A stretch of DNA of 64,000 nt from a virus (IMGVR_UViG_3300032030_000005:96001-160000), one strand, 5' to 3'. Shown: positions 7,801-49,217, counted from the first letter of the stretch. Translations and numbers: made by a program. Notes: a model not told the origin generated them from the sequence alone.

Positions 7801-10627
7801 GAAATTAGATAAACATGGTAATGAAACTGAAGAAACATTAAATGTTAAAGATACATCAGGAAAGGTACAGTTAGCTAATAGATTAGCTGCTCGTGAATTT
7901 AAATTAGATAAAGTAAAAACTGCTAAATTTATAGCTTCTAAAGTTAAAGATGGTGTATCTAAATTAAAAGATAAGATAAAAGAAAAAGCAGAACAAGTTA
8001 AAAGTTGGGCTGGTAAACATAAAGGTGAAATAGCTGCTTTTGCAGTAGGTGGTATTGCTGGAGTAGGAGCTTATGAAGTTGCTAAAGGTGCTTATAAAGG
8101 TGTAAAAACTCTTAAAGAAAATAAATATGAAAAGATAAATCAGATGTTAACAGTAGCATCTACACCATTCTTATTTATGGATAATAAAATGAAGAAATCT
8201 ATTGAAAAATTACAAAATAGCAAGATTGGTAAACAGATGTTAAATCAGCCAATGAAAGCAGCTAAAACATTATTCCAGACTGCTACGTATAGTATATTCG
8301 GTAGTAGTGAAACTGCCGCTGAAAAATCTGGTCTTAAATCTTTATTAACGAATATTACTAAGAAATTAACAGGCGAAGATGATCATAAAGATAAATTTAC
8401 ATCTAACTTAGAAGATATTGGTGAAGAAAGTGCAACAGTAGCATATTCAAAGTTAAATGAAAATAATCTTAGAAATAGAATATTAAATGCTTTTGCTAAA
8501 GCTACTGGTATTGCTACTGCTAAAAAAGGTGATAATGGTCATGTAATGACAACTTCTCAAATCGTTGATGAAGAAAGAACGAAAAATGCTTCATTACAAA
8601 TTGCAGCAAATGGTACAGCTGGTAATGCTAGTGGTGCTAATATGTCAGGTACTTGGAATTCTGCTGCACAAATGATCAATGGACCAACAAAAGGTCAAAC
8701 TGTTCAAGATTATGTACTTAAAACATTACAAAATAGTAGTATTTCTAGAGGCGTATCAGATGGACATAGAGGTGTTGACTTCGCCGCAGCAATGAACACA
8801 CCAATTTATTCTCCATTTGAAGGTAAAGTTGTAGCCAGTGCATACGATCCAGATAGAATCATATGTACTAATAATGCAGGTGGAAATGATGAAAATGGAT
8901 CAATGGGTAACTTCGTATTAATGCAATTACCAAATGGTAATTATGCAACATTTATGCACATGGTAGAAGGTCCTGCAGTTAGAACTGGCGAACTTGTTAA
9001 AGCTGGACAGTTACTAGGTAAAGTAGGTAATACTGGTGGTAGTTACGGTGCTCACTTACATTTAGAAATAAAAAGTGGTATGTGGGGTGGTACAGTACTT
9101 GATCCGGCATCATATGGTTTAGGAAGAAAAGGTAAAAAATTAGATGGTTTTGATAAAAATAAAAAGACAACCGGATACGGTGCTCATGTATATCAAAGAG
9201 ATTATTCTAATATTATCTTTAATAAAAATGGTGATGAAACATTACAAACATTAGGTGATTCTGGTTGCGGTCCAGCAGCTGCAACTGTTGTTAAAAGATT
9301 ATATACGAATGGTAAAAGTAGATTTGGTAGAGCTGATAATAAAAATAAAGATAATAAAGATAAAAGTACAGCTAAAGCATCTACAGTTCAAAATCCATTA
9401 GGAAAAACAGCTTCATTCTCAGACGATTATGGTAATACATTTGATATTACTATTGAGCAAGAACATATTGATGTATTTAATGCTTGTAAAGAATGTGGAT
9501 GTTCTGATGCGGCTGCTTGTGGTGTATTAGGTAATTTACATCAGGAAACAGGTGGTACTGGTGAAAGATTAAGACATTGGGCTGAAAACCATGGTGAATA
9601 TGGTGGAGGTATCATGCAATGGACTCCTTGGACTAAACATGTTGATTGGGCCAACAGTCATGGTATGAACCCTTGGACTTGGGAAGCAAGTTTAGCACAT
9701 ATGCAAGACGAATTGCTTAATGGTGGTAACTGGTCTAACCCTCAAGATGCTAGTCCTTCTTTAGCAAGTGAAGGTTATCATGCTTGTTCTAATACTCCAG
9801 AATTTATGGCATTAAATGATCCAGCTGATGCAGCAGTAAACTTTGAAAGAGCATTTGAAGTTTCAGGTGACTGGAATGGTAGAAACTCAGAAGGTATTGT
9901 ATATAGTGAAAATCAGCTTAGAGACAGAAAGAGAGTTGGTCCTGCTATTGCATATTATGAATGCTTAGTAGGTACATATAATGGTTCTGTAAGACTTAGA
10001 TCGTCAGTAAATGGAGTTTCTGGAAGTACAGGATTTATTAATATTATTACTGATAGTGTTGTAAGTGGATCTCAGTTAGCTAATTATATGAATGCTAACA
10101 AATCTACTAATAATAGTACTACAGATATAACAGCTAGTAATGGAAGCACTGCTACTACAGGTAATGGTCGTTTTGGTAGGGGTGTAAGTTTTGGTAATAT
10201 TCATTTTGAATCTACTAGTTCACCAAATAATAATAACAATAGTATACAAAGTAATATAACTAAAACTGCAGCTGTTGCTCCTTCAGTAGGTTCTTATATA
10301 AAGAATAATATGTCTATAACAGATACCGATGATAAAGGAAATTCAAAAACAACAACAAGCGTATATACTACTGATAATAAAACAACTTTAACAACAAACG
10401 GTAAATCAACAATTGTTATTTGTAATAACTTTACGGAAAAGACTAAGACGGATTTAAGTGAGATACTTTCTAACTTTAAAAAGTTAAACGGTACTCAAGC
10501 TAATGCTTTAAAAGTATTAAAAGCTATATCTGATTTAATTAAAGAAGAAAATTCAGAAGCATTAGAAAGTCTTTCAAATCTTAAACTTTCTAATGATGGT
10601 CTTGATTATATCCTTAAAGGATTATAA
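4886..10627 (+). CDS. Tape-measure-like lytic tail protein (paralog B): M23 peptidase, N-half of a C39-like peptidase, phage tail lysozyme
   Basis: M23 motifs HRGVDF and GAHLHLE; YQRD...DSGCGPAAA; phage tail lysozyme (Phage_lysozyme2-like) motifs AAACGVLGNLHQET, GGIMQWT and AAVNFERAFE. Confidence 0.8.
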   Translation: MADMKSSKDKLSQAVNNMDPNLQKIAANTDAIVSTLSQQSSAIQQLKDAIARKEQTENEGNKQITSSLKQTNSTISLINKNILNLNKNVTSLTKTVSSLNESRGTTVSLLCGIQTSLIQITSVLASFRSDYLLSTNGQRINGNSFYDMTSLNNLVNSLSSLKDPTVKQNIQALHKALKYANSSSKSVRSHLGQNVTNEDSIFEKILGIADTGKQYAGLGALFSPYIKGGKFNSVIDRYMNADTSSIANLFYSMLGSNGKKTIKDIKGLGSKFSDSNNPLKRLIGNMMGQAGFKNEKKEREKDPTLVLSSLAPFADDIKDMVNLSYQGVKSRPKSIPIYAKPVWIVNSPDQKNYVGNVKAKDTHGADLKRKRLEDLFGGRANNLKDIYGNELLYQDEDGHWKGSATEGFNNKQIRNIRQKQESRNRKLMYGENYKELENKIYGSKILNTGIGIGNFKLSLNDLLSEDPNNVMGNMISNLAANGLQQIPGLLGSHAGGKKGKKRRKGLDPNREINTNDHDVSLIDGETTVLNASQTDNLKDMGDIKSGITTMSGAIASLASIISQSTILFSQAASSKKQKIDSKVLNKLSPDESVFDYLLKTSGSDEGSKKALTQFKKFSNLKKTLKITSKRETTSEYFGLNPNEGNGKKGVLSGAIDSLTTKLGVNKDLVKDPKRFIKNSIIRKVNNTFSLKGTSSNGTADKIAEGVSDDKNKKKIKGLFKSFKKQQDLEIKDKIKEGTTGLKDVAKVSATNETVTNSINTAETAAVEANIKADAATNASINKMKMANAKQEEATKAAADKTEVAQQIATDKFVNATEVKTAAQEAMVQEASVGAEAGASTTSFLGKITATMCGLPLPVKIGLGAAGVAATVAIGKKMYDKVKQAANGKKPNFEDSQSSLKGASGKTEKEAQKEKEKAEKAQKRQERLENFKKRAKRSLKSSFNALTLGLFAQKVYVADNGDVLYSKDNSPVKKLDKHGNETEETLNVKDTSGKVQLANRLAAREFKLDKVKTAKFIASKVKDGVSKLKDKIKEKAEQVKSWAGKHKGEIAAFAVGGIAGVGAYEVAKGAYKGVKTLKENKYEKINQMLTVASTPFLFMDNKMKKSIEKLQNSKIGKQMLNQPMKAAKTLFQTATYSIFGSSETAAEKSGLKSLLTNITKKLTGEDDHKDKFTSNLEDIGEESATVAYSKLNENNLRNRILNAFAKATGIATAKKGDNGHVMTTSQIVDEERTKNASLQIAANGTAGNASGANMSGTWNSAAQMINGPTKGQTVQDYVLKTLQNSSISRGVSDGHRGVDFAAAMNTPIYSPFEGKVVASAYDPDRIICTNNAGGNDENGSMGNFVLMQLPNGNYATFMHMVEGPAVRTGELVKAGQLLGKVGNTGGSYGAHLHLEIKSGMWGGTVLDPASYGLGRKGKKLDGFDKNKKTTGYGAHVYQRDYSNIIFNKNGDETLQTLGDSGCGPAAATVVKRLYTNGKSRFGRADNKNKDNKDKSTAKASTVQNPLGKTASFSDDYGNTFDITIEQEHIDVFNACKECGCSDAAACGVLGNLHQETGGTGERLRHWAENHGEYGGGIMQWTPWTKHVDWANSHGMNPWTWEASLAHMQDELLNGGNWSNPQDASPSLASEGYHACSNTPEFMALNDPADAAVNFERAFEVSGDWNGRNSEGIVYSENQLRDRKRVGPAIAYYECLVGTYNGSVRLRSSVNGVSGSTGFINIITDSVVSGSQLANYMNANKSTNNSTTDITASNGSTATTGNGRFGRGVSFGNIHFESTSSPNNNNNSIQSNITKTAAVAPSVGSYIKNNMSITDTDDKGNSKTTTSVYTTDNKTTLTTNGKSTIVICNNFTEKTKTDLSEILSNFKKLNGTQANALKVLKAISDLIKEENSEALESLSNLKLSNDGLDYILKGL

Positions 10628-12909: not shown

Positions 12910-14130
12910 ATGGTTTATACTACTTACTTAAATGAAGAAATTGCAAATGATGAAATTTATCCAATTTTTATAGCTTTATCTGAAGGCAAATCTTATATTT
13001 CTAAAAAAATAAAAGATGTTACAAAATGTCCATATTCACATTGTATGATAGGATTAGATCCAGAATTAAAGTATTTTTATAGTTTTAATATAATTGATAA
13101 TTTTAATAATGGATTTGTAATTGAAACCCTAGAAAATTTAGCAAAGAAAGCTAATAGTATAAATATATATGTATTTTTTGTAAATAGATCTATATACAAA
13201 AATATAGTTAAATCTATTAAGAGGTACAATGATTTAAAAGATAAAACTAAGTATAGTATTAAAAGATTATTTGAAGCTGCTTTTAATAAAGGTAAAGAAA
13301 CTAATCCTATGCAACAGGTATGTTCATCATTTGTTTATAGTATTTTATCGCATTCAGGAGTACATTTAGCTCCAGATAATATATTATGTGTAAAACCTTC
13401 AGATTTTTACACTACTATAAATAATAATAAAAAATATATCTATCAGATATATGAAGGAAGTCCTCTTGATATAAATATGGATGATATTACTATTGAATTG
13501 AATAAATTAAAAGATAAGAAAAGTACTAAAGAATTTAATCAAGAAAAAATAATACTTACAGAAAGTGAACGTATATATCCAGAAACTGTCGATAGGTCAG
13601 CATATGATAATTTTGTATTATTTAATTTATTTCATGTTTACACAACAGATATGACTTTGAGAAATGATCCACAATTTATATCTAAAATGAAATGGGTTAA
13701 AGATAGAATAACTGAAATATGTGATATGGCTGGATGGACAGTATTTCCTTATGAATTAACTTTATGTGCATCATTTGAAGACCTAGATGAATTTTATAAT
13801 CATCAAGCTCCTAAATGGGTAACTGGTTTTACATATGGTGATAAAGTTTATATGAAAGGACCTGCTATATATCCTGGAGAACTTTATTATAATGTAGTAT
13901 TACATGAATGTATTCATGTTCAAATATATCTTAATGAAAAAGTACAAGGAAAAACTATATCACGAGAAGATGAAGAAGGTATGGCCGTTTTCTTTAGTAC
14001 TCCACTTGATAAATGGCTTAAGGAATTAAATCATGGTCCTAACTGGTATTATTATGAGAGTGCAATAAGAGTTCAAGAAGACTTTTTAAATTATGGAATG
14101 AAAAAAGTAATTCAGAAAAGATTTAAATAA
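12910..14130 (+). CDS. Two-domain protein: permuted papain-like (NlpC/P60-type) domain plus HEXXH zinc peptidase-like domain
   Basis: PYSHCMIG near the N-terminus precedes QVCSSFVY (His-before-Cys order). C-terminal VVLHECIH...DEEGMA. Confidence 0.6.
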   Translation: MVYTTYLNEEIANDEIYPIFIALSEGKSYISKKIKDVTKCPYSHCMIGLDPELKYFYSFNIIDNFNNGFVIETLENLAKKANSINIYVFFVNRSIYKNIVKSIKRYNDLKDKTKYSIKRLFEAAFNKGKETNPMQQVCSSFVYSILSHSGVHLAPDNILCVKPSDFYTTINNNKKYIYQIYEGSPLDINMDDITIELNKLKDKKSTKEFNQEKIILTESERIYPETVDRSAYDNFVLFNLFHVYTTDMTLRNDPQFISKMKWVKDRITEICDMAGWTVFPYELTLCASFEDLDEFYNHQAPKWVTGFTYGDKVYMKGPAIYPGELYYNVVLHECIHVQIYLNEKVQGKTISREDEEGMAVFFSTPLDKWLKELNHGPNWYYYESAIRVQEDFLNYGMKKVIQKRFK

Positions 14131-14173: not shown

Positions 14174-14785
14174 GTGATTTTAATGCGTTTTTATAACGAA
14201 GGTAACAAATGTAATTGTGGCAAGAGATCTTGTCCTGAATGCAATCCAAAGATTAGCAAGATTAGTAAGCCAGATGCAAATGGTTTAGTTAATAAGAAAA
14301 CAATTGGTAATCATTATATGAAGTTTGATGAAGCATTTATGCAGGGTTATTATGATGCTTTAAATGAAATGGAAGAATATGATGAATATGAGGAAGAAGA
14401 TGCTTATGAATCTTACAATGAAGAAGATTTAGAAAATGCATATCTTGAAGGTTATTATGCTGCTTTAAATGAAACATCAGCAGCTACTAAAGCTAAACAA
14501 AGATCACTTGGTATGAAAGGCGTTAAAGGTGGAACACATACTCATAATAATGACGATTTTTGGCCTTTATGTAATTCTGGAGCTTTTAAAAAAGATGAAG
14601 CTGTTAGAGATTATAGAAATAAACACAGGTCTGACTATTTAACAGTTAAAAGACAGAGAATGCTTGGTGGTAAGACTGTGGAAATTGCAGATGCTCCAAA
14701 TGGTAAAAGATATAGTATTTGGACTAAAGGACATCAGTATCCAACTTCAGAAAGAATTATTCCTAATAGGAAGCCTAATAAGTGA
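14174..14785 (+). CDS. EGYYDALNE-tagged basic protein (putative internal head protein) with an N-terminal Cys cluster
   Basis: CNCGKRSCPEC, then EAFMQGYYDALNE...AYLEGYYAALNE, then a K/R-rich tail. Probable start ATG at 14183. Confidence 0.65.
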   Translation: MILMRFYNEGNKCNCGKRSCPECNPKISKISKPDANGLVNKKTIGNHYMKFDEAFMQGYYDALNEMEEYDEYEEEDAYESYNEEDLENAYLEGYYAALNETSAATKAKQRSLGMKGVKGGTHTHNNDDFWPLCNSGAFKKDEAVRDYRNKHRSDYLTVKRQRMLGGKTVEIADAPNGKRYSIWTKGHQYPTSERIIPNRKPNK

Positions 14786-14786
14786 T

Positions 14787-14828
14787 AAAATATTCCCTTA
14801 AGACTAATAAGTCTTAAGGGAATATTTT
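14787..14828. terminator. Bidirectional terminator/palindrome, CCCTTAAGAC family
   Basis: AAAATATTCCCTTAAGACT-AATA-AGTCTTAAGGGAATATTTT between convergent genes. Confidence 0.8.
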
Positions 14829-15364
14829 TAATAAAGTTCTGCTAATGCATCATAATATCCTTCTAAAAATGCTTCAGTAAGATAATCTTCTTTAAATCCT
14901 TTAGTATATTTAACAGCTGCGTCATATGTGTTTTTATCCATTTCAGAATAATCACAAGTTTTATGTTTAAAACCTTTTCTGATAATTTCATGATTTTTTA
15001 TTTTTTTACTACCTTTAATAGCACCAACAGTTCCAACAGTAGCAAACATACCACTAGCAACAAGAACTCTTCTTAATCTTTTCATAGTTTGAATATCTTC
15101 TGGTGTTTTATTTTTTTTCGCTTTTAACGCTTTATATTTCTTTAATGCTGCTGCACCATTAGCAACATTTCCTATAGCCATAGCACCATGGATAGCTGTA
15201 TTAGCAATTTCTTTATTTCTATGTTTCTTTGCAACATCAGATAAATATTTATTTTGTACATAATGTGCATCTATTTTTCCATTACTGTCTATATGTTTTA
15301 CAGCTGCAGGATGATTAGTTCCTTTAGTTGACTTGCTATCAACTCTAACCCATTCTTCTGTCAT
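14828..15364 (-). CDS. Basic protein with a C-terminal EAFLEGYYDALAE tag and two hydrophobic Gly/Ala helices
   Basis: Ends in EDYLTEAFLEGYYDALAELY; hydrophobic segments AIHGAMAIGNVANGAAAL and VLVASGMFATVGTVGAI. Confidence 0.65.
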   Translation of the reverse strand: MTEEWVRVDSKSTKGTNHPAAVKHIDSNGKIDAHYVQNKYLSDVAKKHRNKEIANTAIHGAMAIGNVANGAAALKKYKALKAKKNKTPEDIQTMKRLRRVLVASGMFATVGTVGAIKGSKKIKNHEIIRKGFKHKTCDYSEMDKNTYDAAVKYTKGFKEDYLTEAFLEGYYDALAELY

Positions 15365-15587: not shown

Positions 15588-16970
15588 CAATAATCTTCAC
15601 ATAGAATCGCTAATTCTATGCAGTTCTCTTATGAACTTCTTCATATTTCTATGAATGTTGAGACTATATCTTCATTTTTATATAAAAATAAAAATGCTTT
15701 TTGTTTCCATTTAAGGGATTTTCACCCACCGCTTGGCCGTACTCTACTTAAATATATAAATTTTCATAATCTCCTTTTTTAATAATAATTTTTCCATTTT
15801 TGATATAAAGGATATTATCAAAATCATTTATTTTTTCGATAGTCGTTGAACTATTTATAAAAAATTCAGCTAAAATTTTATCTAAAATTTTTCTATTTTT
15901 ATAGCTAATTCTAATTAATGAATATTTATTATTATTTATAAAAAAATCAAATTTCTCTTTATCCCTTGCAAGTTGTTCATTAAAGGTTTGTGGAGTATTA
16001 CTAAAAGATAATTCAAAATGTTGTTTTCCATCAAATTCTAGAAATATATTTGATTGTATAACAAAATCAAAAGATTTTGATGTTGAAAATTCATTACAAT
16101 GTTCTTCATCTTCAAAAGAAATATTATTTTTTATTAAAAACTTTTCTATTTCTTTACAATATATTGAATTTTTTATTTTTCTTCCACAATAAGGACATCT
16201 TGCTTTATTACATAAAAATTCTTTTGGAGCTACTTTATATATTTTATTACATTTATTATGTTTAATTTTAAGTGGTTTATCTGTATTTATATATTCTTCT
16301 AAAAAAGTATATTCATCTCCAACGTGATCTTTTACTTCTTTTAAAAATTCATCGTTTGTCCTTTTTGTATTTCTTTTACAGCAAAAAGGACATCTTCTTT
16401 TTGCTCTTACAAAATTATTAGGTGTTACAAAATACACATTACCACACAAATTATGTTTTACTTTTAATTTAGTTTTATCATTTATATATTCTTCTAAAAA
16501 AGTATATTCATCTCCAACTTGATTTTTTATTTCTTTTAAAAATTCATCATTAGATTTTCTTCTATTTTTAGCATTAAATTCCGTGATACATTTCCTACAT
16601 CTACATTTTTTATTTAAAAATGTGTTAGGAGTTACATTATAAATATTACCACACAAATTATGTTTTACTTTTAAAGGTGTATTAGTATTTATATATTCTT
16701 CTAAAAAAGTATATTCATCTCCAACTTGATTTTTTACTTCTTTTAAAAATTCATCGTTAGATTTTTTAATATTTTTTGGCATAACAAATTCTCCTTTTTA
16801 TTAATAAAAAATTTGTTTTGCAATTCACGGAATCTTTTATTTATAAATAGCTGCTGATTGTCCAATCCTTTTGATTTTCAAACATTCACGCTTAGAATTA
16901 CTTCTTACGTTGTAGTTCAAAAGGCTCTAAGGAGTTTCCAGCAATTAAAAAAGTTAAGAACCAATATTTT
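15588..16970 (-). mobile_element. Group I intron (IA-like) in the RNAP beta-like gene, carrying a homing endonuclease
   Basis: P1 AAGAGCU/GGUUCUU with a U.G pair at the 5' splice site. P AAUUGCUGGAA, Q AAUCAGCAG (~16851-16859), R GUUCAACGACUA (15840-15851), S AAGAUAUAGUCU (15661-15672), P9 hairpins and a terminal G. Confidence 0.9.
15748..16782 (-). CDS. Intron-encoded homing endonuclease (3 zinc-ribbon repeats plus Vsr/DUF559-like nuclease)
   Basis: Three NDEFLKE.K..VGDEYTFLEEYIN...KHN.C...C..C repeats; C-terminal FDF...LEFDGKQH. Confidence 0.85.
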   Translation of the reverse strand: MPKNIKKSNDEFLKEVKNQVGDEYTFLEEYINTNTPLKVKHNLCGNIYNVTPNTFLNKKCRCRKCITEFNAKNRRKSNDEFLKEIKNQVGDEYTFLEEYINDKTKLKVKHNLCGNVYFVTPNNFVRAKRRCPFCCKRNTKRTNDEFLKEVKDHVGDEYTFLEEYINTDKPLKIKHNKCNKIYKVAPKEFLCNKARCPYCGRKIKNSIYCKEIEKFLIKNNISFEDEEHCNEFSTSKSFDFVIQSNIFLEFDGKQHFELSFSNTPQTFNEQLARDKEKFDFFINNNKYSLIRISYKNRKILDKILAEFFINSSTTIEKINDFDNILYIKNGKIIIKKGDYENLYI

Positions 16971-45895: not shown

Positions 45896-45984
45896 AGTAT
45901 CACCTTCTTAATAATTAATATAATGTAAAGTTTAAAAAACTAATTATTATATTTTTACACTATAATAGAAAGAAGGACATTGAT

Positions 45985-46452
45985 ATGAATTATGAAGAAT
46001 TATTTTTAGAAGGTTATTATGATGCTTTAAATGAAATAGAAGAAGATTCTTATGATGAATATGAAGCTTATAATGAAGAAGATTTAGAAGAAGCATATCT
46101 TGAAGGTTATTATGCAGCTTTAAATGAAGCTAATAAATACGAACAATATATGGGTATGACTAAAGGTCAAAAGCAACAAGCAAGATATGATAGAAATAGA
46201 GCTGAAGATACAACAAAATATATAACCTTAAAAAATGGAAAAAAAGGTGCTATTGGAAGGGCTTCAAACTTTATGTATCATAATATGAACGGTAGAAAAG
46301 TTGGTTCAGATTATGGTTCAAATTCATACACTGTAATGCAAAAAGGATTTAATAACGCACCTGAAAATAGAGAAAAGAATATAAGTTCAGTTTCTTCTAG
46401 AAATTTAAGAAGAGGTAGTGCATCTAATAGTTGGCATAATATTGATAAATAA
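45985..46452 (+). CDS. EGYYDALNE-leader protein with basic cargo A
   Basis: 46-aa acidic leader identical to that of ORF 47071(-), followed by an unrelated K/R/N-rich tail. Confidence 0.75.
   Translation: MNYEELFLEGYYDALNEIEEDSYDEYEAYNEEDLEEAYLEGYYAALNEANKYEQYMGMTKGQKQQARYDRNRAEDTTKYITLKNGKKGAIGRASNFMYHNMNGRKVGSDYGSNSYTVMQKGFNNAPENREKNISSVSSRNLRRGSASNSWHNIDK
45991..46128 (+). repeat. 138-bp perfect inverted repeat, left copy
   Basis: Identical to the reverse complement of 46919-47056 (checked base by base). Confidence 0.95.
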
Positions 46453-46502
46453 AAATATATCCCTTAAGACTAATTAGTCTTAAGGGATATATTTTTATTT
46501 AT
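46445..46502. terminator. Perfect 58-bp palindrome, bidirectional terminator (CCCTTAAGAC family)
   Basis: ATAAATAAAAATATATCCCTTAAGACTAA|TTAGTCTTAAGGGATATATTTTTATTTAT. Confidence 0.9.
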
Positions 46503-47071
46503 TAAAAATCTTTTTTCTTTAAACCATTTTTAGTTTGTACATATTTACCTTTATTGGTATAATATCTATGCTCAGTACCATCACTAGTGGTAAAAGTTGC
46601 TCTACTTGGCTGACCACCATAGTATTTAACTGATGAACCAAGCATATCATGCATTCCTGCAGAATTTGGATTAACTGATTTTCCATCTATTGTAGCACTA
46701 GTTATATATTTACCTTTAGTTGATGGATTTACACCTTTATTATGAATTAATCTTCCTTTAGTCAGTCCTCTATATGATTTACCTTTTTCTTTAGACATTT
46801 TTCCCGGATGCATAAGTGCTTCTATTTTTCTTCCTTCATGAACATTACCAGCTTTCATTTGTTTTCTCCATTCACGAGCTAAAACTTTATTATGTTCTTG
46901 TTTATTATACTGACTTGTTTCATTTAAAGCTGCATAATAACCTTCAAGATATGCTTCTTCTAAATCTTCTTCATTATAAGCTTCATATTCATCATAAGAA
47001 TCTTCTTCTATTTCATTTAAAGCATCATAATAACCTTCTAAAAATAATTCTTCATATGTCATTATAGACAC
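46502..47071 (-). CDS. EGYYDALNE-leader protein with basic cargo B
   Basis: Same 46-aa leader, different K/G-rich tail. Confidence 0.75.
   Translation of the reverse strand: MSIMTYEELFLEGYYDALNEIEEDSYDEYEAYNEEDLEEAYLEGYYAALNETSQYNKQEHNKVLAREWRKQMKAGNVHEGRKIEALMHPGKMSKEKGKSYRGLTKGRLIHNKGVNPSTKGKYITSATIDGKSVNPNSAGMHDMLGSSVKYYGGQPSRATFTTSDGTEHRYYTNKGKYVQTKNGLKKKDF
46919..47056 (-). repeat. 138-bp perfect inverted repeat, right copy
   Basis: Reverse complement of 45991-46128. Confidence 0.95.
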
Positions 47072-47133
47072 ATCCTTTCTTTAAATTAATAATTTATAGT
47101 TTTATAATTCGTATCAAAATAAAATTATATATA

Positions 47134-47141
47134 TATATTAT
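47134..47141 (+). promoter_or_regulatory. Putative early promoter TATATTAT
   Basis: Directly upstream of the small-ORF array. Confidence 0.6.
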
Positions 47142-47163
47142 AATTGTAGAAAGGAGGAATATT

Positions 47164-47277
47164 ATGATTAAAGATATTCTTAAGGTCTTGGTAAAGACCT
47201 ACTCAGTAGCGTTGGCTGTTACAGGTATAGCGCTTCTGATATTAAATGTCATATCCTCACAAAAAGAAAAAAACTAA
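47164..47277 (+). CDS. Small membrane peptide (37 aa)
   Basis: AAGGAGG SD; MIKDILKVLVKTYSVALAVTGIALLILNVISSQKEKN. Confidence 0.7.
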   Translation: MIKDILKVLVKTYSVALAVTGIALLILNVISSQKEKN

Positions 47278-47312
47278 TAATCTGTTAATCACATGAAAGG
47301 AGGTGATATAGT

Positions 47313-47441
47313 ATGACAGATATTATATTAAACTTTTTTAAAGGTTTACTCTACGCACATGAAGTAGGGTTAGCTATTAGTGTTGCCTGTCTTGCATTGA
47401 TAGTGGTTTGCTGTAGACAGAATAACAAAGAAGATAAATAA
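47313..47441 (+). CDS. Small membrane peptide (42 aa)
   Basis: AAGGAGGTGA SD; MTDIILNFFKGLLYAHEVGLAISVACLALIVVCCRQNNKEDK. Confidence 0.7.
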   Translation: MTDIILNFFKGLLYAHEVGLAISVACLALIVVCCRQNNKEDK

Positions 47442-47718: not shown

Positions 47719-48471
47719 TTAGTTTACAACATCATAAAATACTTCAATGTAACTATTATTTAATTTTTTAATTTTAGTTAAATTAAGAATACCTATATCA
47801 CTTAATTTTTTAACATCACTTCCACCTATTAAAGAAGATGTATTTGTACCACCAACTAATATCGGACATATAACAATATTGACTTTGTCTATTAAATGGT
47901 TTCTTAAAAAGATATTATTTAAAGTTGAACCAGTTTGTATTGTAAGTTCTTTGCATCCATACTTATATAATTCTTCAAGCATATTTTTTGGATTAAATTT
48001 TCCATTATATTCTATAATAGTTAAATTATCTTCGTTAGATAAATATGCTGGATGATTTTTATTACTTGTTACTAAATAAAAATGATTGAATACACTACAT
48101 GTATAAGATACACCATGATCTGTTAAATGATTATTATCTATAATAACAAAATTAACTGGACATCTTTCTTTAGCAAATGGCTTTGAATTATAACCGACTT
48201 TTGCCATTACTCTACCACTATTTAAACTCCATAAATCCGTTTCTTGTTCTGCTTCATAGTATTGATGTAATCCTTGTGCTGGGTTACCTGATAATTTAGG
48301 AATATCTTTATCTACATCAAAATTATCAGTAGGACCTGTACTTATTTTTCCATCTAAGCTTTGTAAAAGAAATAATGTTGTAACAGGTCTATTTGACGGA
48401 TTCTGCTGTTCGTTTAATATTTCATACATATATGCATCGAAATAACCTTCTAAAAAAGCTTTATTTAACAT
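47719..48471 (-). CDS. RibD C-terminal/dihydrofolate reductase-family protein with an N-terminal FLEGYFDA tag
   Basis: RPVTTLFLLQSLDGKIS, LTIQTGSTLN.FL...LIDKV.IVICPILVGG; extra N-terminal MLNKAFLEGYFDAYMYEILNE. Confidence 0.85.
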   Translation of the reverse strand: MLNKAFLEGYFDAYMYEILNEQQNPSNRPVTTLFLLQSLDGKISTGPTDNFDVDKDIPKLSGNPAQGLHQYYEAEQETDLWSLNSGRVMAKVGYNSKPFAKERCPVNFVIIDNNHLTDHGVSYTCSVFNHFYLVTSNKNHPAYLSNEDNLTIIEYNGKFNPKNMLEELYKYGCKELTIQTGSTLNNIFLRNHLIDKVNIVICPILVGGTNTSSLIGGSDVKKLSDIGILNLTKIKKLNNSYIEVFYDVVN

Positions 48472-49217
48472 TATTTCTCCTCCCTCAGATCATTTATTCT
48501 ATCAACTAATTCATCATACTTTTTATCATATATTTTAATATAATGAACTTTCTTATTTTTTATATCATCCTGAACTGCTTCTTCTTTAAGTACTTCTAAC
48601 TGATAATCTCTATCACGATATCCATGACCACTTTGAGTACCTTTAACTTCAATAAGTAAATTAATATCGGCTAAGAAAATATCAGGAATATAAAAATGCT
48701 TCTTTCCTTCATAAGTATAATTATAAATCTGAGGAGCTGGTGCAAATACTTCACAGCTTGGATACTGCATAATCTTATCTAAATACTCTAATAAATCTTT
48801 TTCATATGTTCCTGTATATGTAAACTCTTTTCCATCAGACCATTTGTATTTTCCAGATATTTTTCTATGTTCCAGCATTTGTTTCTGTCTAACTGGATCC
48901 TGTAACTGCGTTAAAGGATCTTTACCTTTAGCCAACATTCTAGCTCTAAATTTAGCCACATAAGCTTCTTTACATTTAGGATTCTTACAAAGTCTATCAT
49001 ATTTTTCAGTTTTTTCATTAAAGAATGTTTCTTTGCCACATTCTGTACATTTCCCTTTATGTGTAGCATTATGATTTCTATAATCAAAATAATAATGTGC
49101 TGCAGATAATCCCAATAATTGATCTTTATGTATATTGTCCATATGATCATATAATGACTGTTTGGATACATATTTTTTATCACATAATGGACATTTAAAT
49201 GATTTAGTATTAATCAT
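48471..49217 (-). CDS. C2H2 zinc finger plus TnsA-like PD-(D/E)XK endonuclease
   Basis: FKCPLCDKKY...LYDHMDNIH, CTEC, GTYE.DLL, FYIPDIFL...LIEVKG. Confidence 0.7.
   Translation of the reverse strand: MINTKSFKCPLCDKKYVSKQSLYDHMDNIHKDQLLGLSAAHYYFDYRNHNATHKGKCTECGKETFFNEKTEKYDRLCKNPKCKEAYVAKFRARMLAKGKDPLTQLQDPVRQKQMLEHRKISGKYKWSDGKEFTYTGTYEKDLLEYLDKIMQYPSCEVFAPAPQIYNYTYEGKKHFYIPDIFLADINLLIEVKGTQSGHGYRDRDYQLEVLKEEAVQDDIKNKKVHYIKIYDKKYDELVDRINDLREEK

What the first reader, a model, noticed from the sequence alone, without database searches (positions are those of the whole stretch)
45985..47071. Symmetric cassette: 138-bp perfect inverted repeat, two different cargos and a central 58-bp perfect palindrome
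Seen: two convergent genes start with identical 138 bp (45991-46128 and 47056-46919). Identity covers the acidic leader and stops at the LNE codon. The cargos are unrelated and meet at a perfect 58-bp palindrome (46445-46502). No synonymous differences means very recent duplication or ongoing gene conversion. Inference: leader DNA serves as a recombination handle. Crossover would invert the ~790-bp interior and swap the cargos between two promoters/RBSs, and leader plus terminator homology would allow cargo exchange between loci or phages. No recombinase is visible in the window.
Basis: partly seen in the sequence, partly recalled or inferred. Interest (0 to 1): 0.78.

Follow-up and report, generated by a model that had tools for sequence, protein, structure and literature searches.

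The report
Mirror-image phage cargo gene pair
Two small genes of an uncultivated giant phage face each other, begin with the same 138 bases and share one two-way stop signal; they most likely encode small basic proteins that are loaded into the phage head by a cut-off acidic tag, and comparison with relatives shows that this kind of pair gets homogenised, flipped and re-loaded with new cargo by ordinary recombination, not by a dedicated switch.

Summary
Observation confirmed. The arms 45991-46128 and 47056-46919 are identical and are the longest exact repeat in the 305,865-bp genome; the 58-bp perfect palindrome 46445-46502 is the second longest.

The repeat encodes a 48-residue acidic leader with two copies of a tag, FLEGYYDAL-x-E. 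The tag occurs on 11 genes of this phage and at least 13 of a 265-kb relative. The genome encodes a T4 gp21-type head protease, which in T4 cuts after L/I-x-E. I read the leader as a removable head-loading propeptide on two unrelated basic cargos. This is inferred, not shown.

The palindrome is one of 29 hairpins of the phage's standard two-way terminator.

Relatives show three things:
- Leaders evolve in concert within a genome.
- One relative carries a different cargo between terminator and leader.
- One relative has the cassette inverted relative to its flank.

No serine or tyrosine recombinase is encoded. Both genes carry the same late-promoter variant. Orientation is constant within each strain (3, 3 and 4 assemblies). 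So this is recombination-driven plasticity, not a switch.

The scan has found T4-like leader tags on other phages, but no look-alike of this cassette. I rate it a new variant of a known kind, of moderate interest.

The parts
45938..45949 (+). Late-promoter-like box AACT-N6-TA, 47 nt upstream of the gene 1 ATG
   Evidence: AACA-N6-TA, the AR9 late consensus (PMC5312081), is 11-fold enriched upstream of genes in this genome. The AACT variant is 4-fold enriched and sits 34-56 nt from start codons.
45973..45977 (+). Ribosome-binding site AAGGA of gene 1
   Evidence: Read from the sequence, 7 nt before the ATG.
45985..46452 (+). Gene 1: leader plus cargo 1 (155 aa)
   Evidence: ORF. Intact orthologues P0009 (87% identical in the cargo) and P0006 (60%).
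45985..46128 (+). Leader of gene 1: 48 aa, two FLEGYY-x-ALNE tags joined by an acidic linker, net charge -18.5, no Lys or Arg
45991..46128 (+). Left arm of the perfect 138-nt inverted repeat
46129..46449 (+). Cargo 1: 107 aa, pI 10.2, net charge +12
   Evidence: dN/dS about 1.2 against orthologues.
46445..46502 (.). Perfect 58-nt palindrome: two-way intrinsic terminator shared by both genes. It overlaps the last 8 nt of gene 1 (stop codon included) and 1 nt of the gene 2 stop codon.
   Evidence: Folds as a hairpin on both strands, -37.3 and -34.0 kcal/mol, z about -9.8. Called a terminator on both strands. Member of a 29-copy CCCTWWAG...CTWWAGGG hairpin family. Relatives keep the hairpin through paired changes.
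46502..47062 (-). Gene 2: leader plus cargo 2 (186 aa)
   Evidence: ORF. A partial orthologue of the cargo lies in L003.
46505..46918 (-). Cargo 2: 138 aa, pI 10.15, net charge +18, no known family
46919..47056 (-). Right arm of the perfect 138-nt inverted repeat, inside the gene 2 leader (46919-47062)
47073..47079 (-). Ribosome-binding site GAAAGGA of gene 2
   Evidence: Read from the sequence, 10 nt before the ATG at 47062.
47090..47101 (-). Late-promoter-like box AACT-N6-TA, 39 nt upstream of the gene 2 ATG
14184..14785 (+). Third gene with the same double-tag acidic leader and a third basic cargo; it is followed by a hairpin of the same terminator family
   Evidence: Its leader DNA is 84% identical to that of gene 1.
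47719..48471 (-). RibD_C-family enzyme with a single N-terminal tag ending in LNE. It shows that the tag is portable.

Best explanation
The cassette is two independently promoted, convergent late genes. Each encodes a precursor made of a 48-residue acidic leader and a small, very basic cargo. The leader carries two copies of a clade-specific tag, [FY]-L-E-G-Y-Y-D-A-L-x-E.

Inferred function: the tag docks the precursor into the assembling prohead, and the phage's gp21-type (S77) head protease cuts after the L-x-E sites. This releases the basic cargo inside the capsid, probably on the DNA and probably ejected with it. The acidic leader neutralises the cargo until then.

The central palindrome is the phage's standard two-way intrinsic terminator. 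It stops both transcripts before they run into each other's antisense.

The perfect 138-nt identity is the product of recent gene conversion between two close, inverted copies of the leader, carried out by general homologous recombination.

The same homology patches (promoter and leader at one end, terminator hairpin at the other) make such loci hot spots. Over evolutionary time cargos are replaced, whole modules are inserted, and the interior is occasionally inverted. A flip has no evident functional consequence, so inversion is a by-product, not a regulatory device.
For: Shown:
- The geometry and the exactness of the repeats.
- The tag occurs on 11 genes of this genome, mostly N-terminal, also internal and C-terminal. 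At least 13 genes of the 265-kb relative G001 carry it; the DNA pattern occurs 14 times there and 0 times in the reversed-pattern control.
- In the N-terminal and internal tags L and E are invariant in L-x-E while x varies (N, E, S, M, C, L).
- The genome encodes a Peptidase_S77 / head maturation protease, with tagged genes just downstream.
- T4 gp21 cuts after L/I-X-E, and the T4 capsid targeting sequence is a short shared N-terminal propeptide on unrelated, mostly basic internal proteins (PMC9026906, PMC5694885, PMC3012670).
- The leader has net charge -18.5; the three cargos behind the long leader have +12 to +18.
- Terminator: hairpin on both strands; a 29-member family, 12 of them between convergent genes; paired changes in relatives.
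- Concerted evolution: window leaders are 100% identical over 138 nt and the L002 pair is 94% identical, but the leaders of orthologous genes are only 81% identical. Leader dS is 0.48 against 0.06 for the cargo and 0.14 for the flank.
- A second, independent perfect inverted repeat of 93 nt (promoter, ribosome-binding site and 14 codons) lies in a convergent tagged pair of G001.
- Cargo replacement in L002, module insertion in L004, inversion in L003.
- Both genes have AACT-N6-TA boxes.
- No serine or tyrosine recombinase; a weak RecA-like gene is present.
Against: - No virion proteomics or transcript data exist for this uncultivated clade, so packaging, cleavage and late timing are inferences.
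- The tag is absent from the cultivated relatives AR9 and Staphylococcus phage SA1, so nothing can be borrowed from them.
- phiKZ-type giant phages use S/A/G-x-E rather than L-x-E, and the specificity of this protease is unknown.
- C-terminal tags also mostly keep L-x-E, where a cut would remove only a few residues. L-x-E may therefore be part of a helix motif rather than a cut site.
- The AACT-N6-TA box is an enriched variant, not a demonstrated promoter. A stricter pattern that adds bases shared by the two genes' boxes is not enriched genome-wide (11 hits against 13-26 in simulated controls).
- The AlphaFold model is of low confidence (mean pLDDT 49.7).
- Only three strain types carry cargo 1, so the inversion rests on one lineage (three assemblies of it).
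Confidence: 0.6

Rival explanations
1. Programmed invertible switch, in the manner of Gin/Hin segments or shufflons. The leader repeats would be crossover sites, and flipping would swap which cargo is driven by which promoter, producing mixed phage populations.
For: The inverted repeats flank a segment with two alternative cargos. The cassette is found in the opposite orientation relative to the endonuclease flank in L003. A second perfect inverted repeat exists in a relative.
Against: - No serine or tyrosine recombinase in the complete genome, with positive controls.
- The repeats are 138 nt of coding DNA rather than short recombinase sites.
- Both promoters belong to the same variant class.
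- After a flip both proteins would still be made and would differ only at residue 2.
- Orientation is constant in 3 assemblies of the window type, 3 of the L003 type and 4 of the G001 cassette.
- Each 90%-identity protein cluster holds a single sequence.
Confidence: 0.05
2. One-off recent inverted duplication of the leader, or recent insertion of a second module. The identity would be a snapshot that will decay, with no ongoing conversion.
For: The identity is perfect and sharply bounded at codon 3 and at LNE. Modules do insert next to terminators.
Against: - The same pattern recurs independently: the L002 pair is 94% identical with its own leader variant, and the G001 pair has 93 nt of perfect identity at a different locus with different boundaries.
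- The leader's synonymous divergence between orthologues is 3-8 times that of adjoining DNA. That requires replacement of leader DNA after the lineages split.
Confidence: 0.15
3. The leader is not a head-loading propeptide. It could be an intramolecular inhibitor or chaperone of a toxic basic protein, an assembly adaptor for another virion part, or a signal processed by the C39-like cysteine peptidase carried by the giant virion proteins of this window.
For: - The charge match between leader and cargo fits a neutralising pro-region on its own.
- The tag also occurs at C-termini and internally.
Against: - The tag sits on unrelated cargos, including an ordinary RibD_C enzyme that needs no neutralising.
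- The junction is L-x-E, not the Gly-Gly that C39 peptidases cut (Gly-Gly specificity is from my own knowledge, not checked here).
- An S77 protease is encoded, with tagged genes beside it.
Confidence: 0.15
4. Assembly artefact: the repeat or the orientation was created by the assembler.
For: An exact inverted repeat of 138 nt may be hard for a short-read assembler to orient (my own knowledge of assemblers, not tested here).
Against: Three contigs carry the identical gene 2 protein with the same neighbours. Both copies run into unique sequence on both sides. Relatives carry the same architecture with diverged sequence.
Confidence: 0.02

Closest known systems
Capsid targeting sequence (CTS) and internal proteins IPI, IPII and IPIII of phage T4, processed by the prohead protease gp21 (PMC9026906, PMC3012670, PMC5694885)
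   Same: A short N-terminal peptide is shared by unrelated, mostly small and basic proteins. It ends in L/I-x-E. A gp21-family protease is encoded. The cargo genes are poorly conserved between relatives. The IPII and IPIII propeptides are identical, as the two leaders are here.
   Different: - No sequence similarity to the T4 tag was detected, and the tag family is in neither Pfam nor PHROGs.
- The leader is 48 residues with two tags and an acidic linker, against 10-20 residues in T4.
- The tag also occurs internally and at C-termini.
- The host phage is AR9-like, not T4-like.
- The genes are convergent and mirror-imaged.
- Packaging and cleavage are untested.
Long propeptides of head and ejection proteins of giant phages phiKZ, 201phi2-1 and SPN3US, including the paralogues gp53 and gp54 with 15 identical N-terminal residues (PMC5694885)
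   Same: Giant phage with a diverged gp21-type protease. Long propeptides with several candidate cut sites. Paralogues keep identical N-termini while the mature parts diverge.
   Different: The cut motif there is S/A/G-x-E, here L-x-E. There the paralogues are homologous throughout; here the cargos are unrelated. No inverted-repeat architecture is described there.
PeSL cassettes (promoter-early stem-loop) that mediate modular shuffling in T4-type genomes (PMC2839356, PMC4122927)
   Same: Repeated regulatory motifs (promoter and terminator hairpin) flank orphan genes. They act as patches of homology for insertion, deletion and replacement by the phage's general recombination system, with no dedicated recombinase known.
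   Different: - The homology here includes coding DNA (the leader).
- The promoter is of the AR9 late type, not sigma-70 early.
- The hairpin family has another sequence.
- Inversion and concerted evolution of an inverted pair are seen here.
- Mini-circles were not looked for.
Site-specific DNA inversion systems (Gin of Mu, Cin of P1, Hin, shufflons); description from my own knowledge, no paper read here
   Same: Inverted repeats flank a segment with alternative coding ends.
   Different: No recombinase gene, long coding repeats, no change in the set of products after a flip, and no mixed orientations within a strain.

Membership tests
T4-type capsid-targeting propeptide with internal-protein cargo | The same short peptide on several otherwise unrelated proteins of one phage | tested here: met
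   11 genes in this genome and at least 13 in G001. The cargos of genes 1 and 2 are unrelated.
T4-type capsid-targeting propeptide with internal-protein cargo | The peptide ends in the cut motif of the head protease (L/I-x-E for gp21) | tested here: met
   At sequence level only. A-L-x-E has L and E invariant and x variable in the N-terminal and internal tags, and conservation ends at the E. Motif from PMC9026906.
T4-type capsid-targeting propeptide with internal-protein cargo | The phage encodes a gp21-family prohead protease | tested here: met
   PF03420 at 36.1 bits, over the cut-off of 27. PHROG head maturation protease families, E 7e-20. The gene carries a group I intron.
T4-type capsid-targeting propeptide with internal-protein cargo | The mature cargo is present in the virion and the leader is removed | not testable with these tools
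   Uncultivated phage with no proteome. The cultivated relatives AR9 and SA1 lack the tag.
T4-type capsid-targeting propeptide with internal-protein cargo | Sequence homology of the tag or the cargo to the T4 CTS or IP proteins | tested here: not met
   No Pfam or PHROG family matches either protein at E up to 0.1. tblastn against 50,697 phage records finds nothing. The likeness is functional, not homology.
Site-specific invertible DNA segment | A serine or tyrosine recombinase encoded in or near the element | tested here: not met
   PF00239 and PF00589 give no match in the complete 305,865-bp genome, while the controls match.
Site-specific invertible DNA segment | Both orientations coexist within one strain | tested here: inconclusive
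   Assemblies only: 3, 3 and 4 contigs of each strain type agree with each other. The opposite orientation is seen only between diverged lineages. No reads were available.
Site-specific invertible DNA segment | Inversion changes which product is expressed | tested here: not met
   Both genes keep a promoter box of the same variant, a ribosome-binding site and a start codon. A crossover in the repeat would change only residue 2.
Two-way intrinsic terminator | A stable hairpin with an A-tract before and a T-tract after, between convergent genes, readable on both strands | tested here: met
   -37.3 and -34.0 kcal/mol, z about -9.8, no shuffle as good. Called on both strands.
Two-way intrinsic terminator | Belongs to a recurrent class at gene ends whose stems covary | tested here: met
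   29 hairpins with conserved outer stems and varying but complementary inner stems, 12 of them between convergent genes. L002 and L003 keep the pairing with other bases. Termination itself is not testable here.
PeSL-like modular shuffling | Differences between close relatives end at the repeated promoter or terminator motifs | tested here: met
   The L002 replacement is bounded by the terminator (window 46509) and the leader (about 46893-46919). The L004 insertion is bounded by the terminator on one side and by the stop of the neighbouring gene on the other.
PeSL-like modular shuffling | The motif is a sigma-70 early promoter plus a G/C-tract stem-loop | tested here: not met
   The boxes are of the AR9 late type (AACT/AACA-N6-TA) and the hairpin core is CCCTWWAG. 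This is an analogue, not a member.

The most novel reading that the evidence does not exclude
The mirror-image layout may be a recurring, self-renewing design of this phage clade rather than an accident. A palindromic terminator can recombine in either orientation, and inverted promoter-leader repeats are kept identical by conversion. Together they would let head-loaded cargo genes be captured, flipped and exchanged between loci and co-infecting phages at high frequency. A population would then carry a shifting set of injected, possibly anti-defence, proteins. On this reading the two longest exact repeats of the genome lie in one cassette because the cassette was rebuilt very recently.
Probability: 0.12. 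Interest if true: 0.75.

Novelty: new variant of a known kind. Interest (0 to 1): 0.5.

Why it matters
If the reading holds, an uncultivated branch of AR9-like giant phages has its own head-loading tag, unrelated in sequence to the T4 tag. The tag sits on small basic proteins and on at least one enzyme.

The cassette gives an unusually clean view of how such cargo sets evolve. Concerted evolution of the tag DNA, cargo replacement bounded by tag and terminator, module insertion and a natural inversion are all visible in a handful of related sequences.

It also gives a practical handle. The tag plus L-x-E could be tested as a packaging signal, and the cargos are candidates for injected DNA-binding or anti-defence proteins.

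It does not reveal a new kind of genetic switch.

Tried and rejected
- tblastn of both proteins against 50,697 phage records found nothing.
- IMG/VR scans with both proteins found no relatives.
- The single metagenome scan returned only the contig already in hand.
- A second homology search with cargo 1 found only P0009.
- An exhaustive HMMER search with cargo 2 gave three weak repeat-like hits without informative Pfam domains.
- Pfam and PHROGs had no family for either protein.
- The AlphaFold2 model of gene 2 had mean pLDDT 49.7. I used it only as a weak hint that the leader is helical, and ran no fold search on it.
- I suspected that cargo 2 is related to the 337-aa acidic-tagged protein next to the protease. 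BLASTP E was 2.4, so I dropped the idea.
- A stricter promoter pattern (AACTA-N3-WTTAT) was not enriched over simulated sequence. I replaced it with an unbiased gapped-motif count.
- Cumulative GC and AT skew show only the local strand switch, with no origin or terminus signal at the cassette.
- Repoila et al. 1994 on T-even internal-protein polymorphism is not held in the library. It is cited only through PMC3012670.
- I did not run complex prediction, because no specific binding partner of the leader could be named.
- My endonuclease dN/dS value used a wrong frame and is discarded.

Full report
**1. What is there**

The window is bases 96001-160000 of a single 305,865-bp virus record with 27% G+C, rated complete by CheckV. 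Its few DNA matches in the phage collection are to the AR9/PBS1 group and to Staphylococcus and Listeria jumbo phages, at 65-74% identity over an endonuclease gene.

Gene 1 (45985-46452, +) and gene 2 (47062-46502, -) converge. Both have a ribosome-binding site at normal spacing from an ATG.

The two genes are identical for 138 nt, from codon 3 to the GAA of the second L-N-E (45991-46128 against 47056-46919). After that they share nothing. The interval 46445-46502 is a perfect palindrome. It overlaps the last 8 nt of gene 1, stop codon included, and one base of the gene 2 stop codon.

A search for all exact repeats of 30 nt or more in the genome ranks the 138-nt inverted repeat first and the palindrome second. 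The next is 50 nt.

**2. The leader is a portable tag**

The 48-residue leader holds two copies of F/Y-L-E-G-Y-Y-D/A-A-L-N-E joined by an acidic linker. It has 18 Asp or Glu, no Lys or Arg, and a net charge of -18.5.

A six-frame scan finds the motif on 11 genes of this genome. It lies mostly right after the start codon, but also internally and at C-termini. Examples:
- a third gene with the same double-tag leader and another basic cargo (14184-14785; start fixed by a GAGGTG site);
- an ordinary RibD_C enzyme with a single tag (47719-48471);
- two genes just downstream of the head protease.

A 265-kb relative, G001, has the DNA pattern 14 times against 0 for the reversed control. AR9 and Staphylococcus phage SA1 have none. 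In IMG/VR the commonest DNA form of the tag occurs in 17 stretches on 11 contigs.

In the N-terminal and internal tags of G001 the tag reads Y-L-E-G-Y-Y-D-A-L-x-E, with x being N, E, S, M, C or L while L and E stay fixed. C-terminal tags mostly keep L-x-E as well, with exceptions.

**3. Why I read the tag as a head-loading propeptide**

The genome encodes a gp21-type protease. Peptidase_S77 scores 36.1 bits against a cut-off of 27, and PHROG head maturation protease families match with E down to 7e-20. T4 gp21 cuts after Glu in L/I-X-E. The T4 capsid targeting sequence is a 10-residue N-terminal peptide, identical in IPII and IPIII, that loads unrelated and mostly basic proteins into the prohead core and is then removed (PMC9026906, PMC3012670). 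Giant phages have longer propeptides with several cut sites, and the paralogues gp53 and gp54 of SPN3US keep 15 identical N-terminal residues (PMC5694885).

Here the sequence conservation among paralogues and orthologues stops exactly at the E of L-x-E. The three cargos behind the long acidic leader have pI about 10.2 and net charges of +12 to +18, so each precursor is near neutral.

All of this fits the T4 logic. None of it is shown: there is no proteome, the protease's specificity is unknown, and the tag has no detectable homology to the T4 tag.

**4. The palindrome is an ordinary terminator of this phage**

The palindrome folds as a long hairpin on both strands (-37.3 and -34.0 kcal/mol, z about -9.8, no shuffle as good). 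The consensus scan calls it a terminator on both strands.

Its core, CCCTTAAG...CTTAAGGG, belongs to a family of 29 hairpins spread over the genome. They are flanked by A-rich and T-rich runs. Their inner stems vary but stay complementary. Twelve lie between convergent genes and several follow other tagged genes. This copy has the longest stem, with 29-bp arms against 11-21 for the others. Another copy is a 42-nt perfect palindrome.

In the relatives L002 and L003 the hairpin is kept with different paired bases, but it is not a perfect palindrome. Perfection is therefore not a conserved property.

**5. Promoters**

An unbiased count of gapped motifs upstream of 151 genes puts AACA-N6-TA far ahead: 46 observed against 4.1 expected. 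This is the AR9 late-promoter consensus (PMC5312081). The variant AACT-N6-TA is enriched four-fold and lies 34-56 nt from start codons.

Gene 1 has the variant at -47, gene 2 at -39, and the divergent 252-aa gene at -37. The small ORF that diverges from gene 2 has an AR9-type early box (ATATATATATTAT, at 47131). Both cargo genes therefore appear to be driven by the same promoter class. This is an inference from motif and position.

**6. What relatives show**

The 5.8-billion-protein index holds only a few relatives.

- **L002** (1,345 bp) has the 252-aa gene, a cargo 1 orthologue and a convergent partner. The partner's cargo is different. Homology to the window runs from the flank through the terminator (to 46509), stops, and resumes in the leader. 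The two L002 leaders are 94% identical to each other from at least 23 nt upstream of the ATG to the L-x-E codon, but only 81-82% identical to the window leaders.
- **Divergence between the window and L002.** Synonymous divergence is 0.48 in the leader, 0.06 in cargo 1 and 0.14 in the 252-aa gene. dN/dS is 0.1-0.2 for the leader, 0.09 for the flank and about 1.2 for cargo 1 (small samples). Leader DNA has therefore been overwritten from paralogues after the lineages split. That is concerted evolution.
- **L003** (2,072 bp, with the same layout in three assemblies) carries the endonuclease, small ORFs on the opposite strand, and then cargo 1 facing cargo 2. Relative to the endonuclease flank the cassette is inverted compared with the window. 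About 55 nt of gene 1-type promoter travel with cargo 1. Since L002 has that promoter on both sides, the ancestral repeat probably covered promoter plus leader. The crossover point cannot be located.
- **L004** shows a leader-cargo gene inserted between the terminator and the stop of the neighbouring gene, at the locus orthologous to genome 238422-239133. This makes another convergent tagged pair.
- **More distant relatives** (L005-L008) have, in the same slot between the endonuclease and the 252-aa gene, a single gene with a C-terminal tag.
- **G001** has two further convergent tagged pairs. One has a 93-nt perfect inverted repeat covering promoter box, ribosome-binding site and 14 codons, with a family-type hairpin in between.

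**7. Switch or by-product?**

The complete genome has no serine or tyrosine recombinase, with positive controls. A weak RecA-like gene exists. A crossover within the 138 nt would leave both proteins expressed and change only residue 2.

Orientation is uniform in three contigs of the window type, three of the L003 type and four of the G001 cassette, which are 100% identical and collinear. The 90%-identity clusters of both proteins hold one sequence each.

I conclude that general recombination between close inverted copies keeps the leaders identical and occasionally flips or reloads the cassette. This resembles PeSL-mediated shuffling in T4-type phages (PMC2839356). Nothing points to a programmed switch. 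Reads were not available, so low-level flipping within a population cannot be excluded.

**8. Comparison with the known, and verdict**

In function the nearest model is the T4 CTS and internal-protein system, together with the propeptides of giant phages. In genome dynamics the nearest model is PeSL shuffling. Membership in the T4 family by homology fails. The features of a site-specific inversion system fail.

What is new:
- the tag family itself, in a clade of AR9-like phages;
- the long double-tag acidic leader matched to basic cargos;
- the recurrent mirror-image layout with exact inverted repeats;
- direct comparative evidence for conversion, replacement, insertion and inversion at such loci.

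Earlier notes of this scan had already flagged the tag in this genome and T4-like tags in many other phages. No look-alike of this cassette was on record.

Noticed in passing
L010:7482-7850 (G000:C1 about 235481-235849, outside the window): The head maturation protease gene is interrupted by a group I intron (Rfam RF00028, 75 bits, E 7.7e-19). Exon 1 is L010 7026-7544; a second ORF at 7933-8226 probably carries exon 2.
   Followed up: partly
window 47719-48471 (-): A RibD_C-family reductase (Pfam E 1.5e-17) carries one N-terminal copy of the tag ending in LNE. An ordinary enzyme may therefore be loaded into the head. The gene is absent from the same slot in L003 and L005-L008.
   Followed up: partly
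window 47131-47441 (+): An AR9-type early promoter box (ATATATATATTAT, one of about 40 in the genome) sits before two tiny hydrophobic ORFs (37 and 42 aa), back to back with the late gene 2.
   Followed up: no
whole genome (G000): The AR9 late-promoter consensus AACA-N6-TA is conserved in this distant uncultivated relative (46 of 151 upstream regions against 4.1 expected). A variant, AACT-N6-TA, is also enriched and positioned.
   Followed up: partly
window 14184-14785 (+) and 14828-15364 (-): The third double-tag gene has a 46-residue N-terminal extension with a CxC...CxxC knuckle ahead of the tag. Its convergent neighbour carries the tag at its C-terminus, directly preceded by L-T-E.
   Followed up: partly
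window 16283-16736 (genome 112283-112736): Three direct repeats of 39-50 exact bases spaced about 200 nt apart lie inside the HNH endonuclease ORF 15748-16782. They are the next longest exact repeats in the genome.
   Followed up: no
window 48471-49217 (-): A zinc-finger plus DUF7487 endonuclease is conserved in AR9, PBS1 and Staphylococcus jumbo phages. It gives a weak PHROG hit to a Holliday junction resolvase (E 9e-4) and lies 1.4 kb from the cassette. I found no specific link to the cassette.
   Followed up: no
L010:8352-9365 (G000:C1 236351-237364): The 337-aa protein just after the protease has a very acidic N-terminus ending in the tag, a basic middle part and a tag-like acidic C-terminus. 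It is a candidate scaffold or core protein, with no family match.
   Followed up: partly
window 12910-14130 (+): A 406-aa protein with a weak PHROG match to the ClpP/crotonase-like fold (E 1.5e-6) sits between a virion structural protein gene and the third tagged gene.
   Followed up: no
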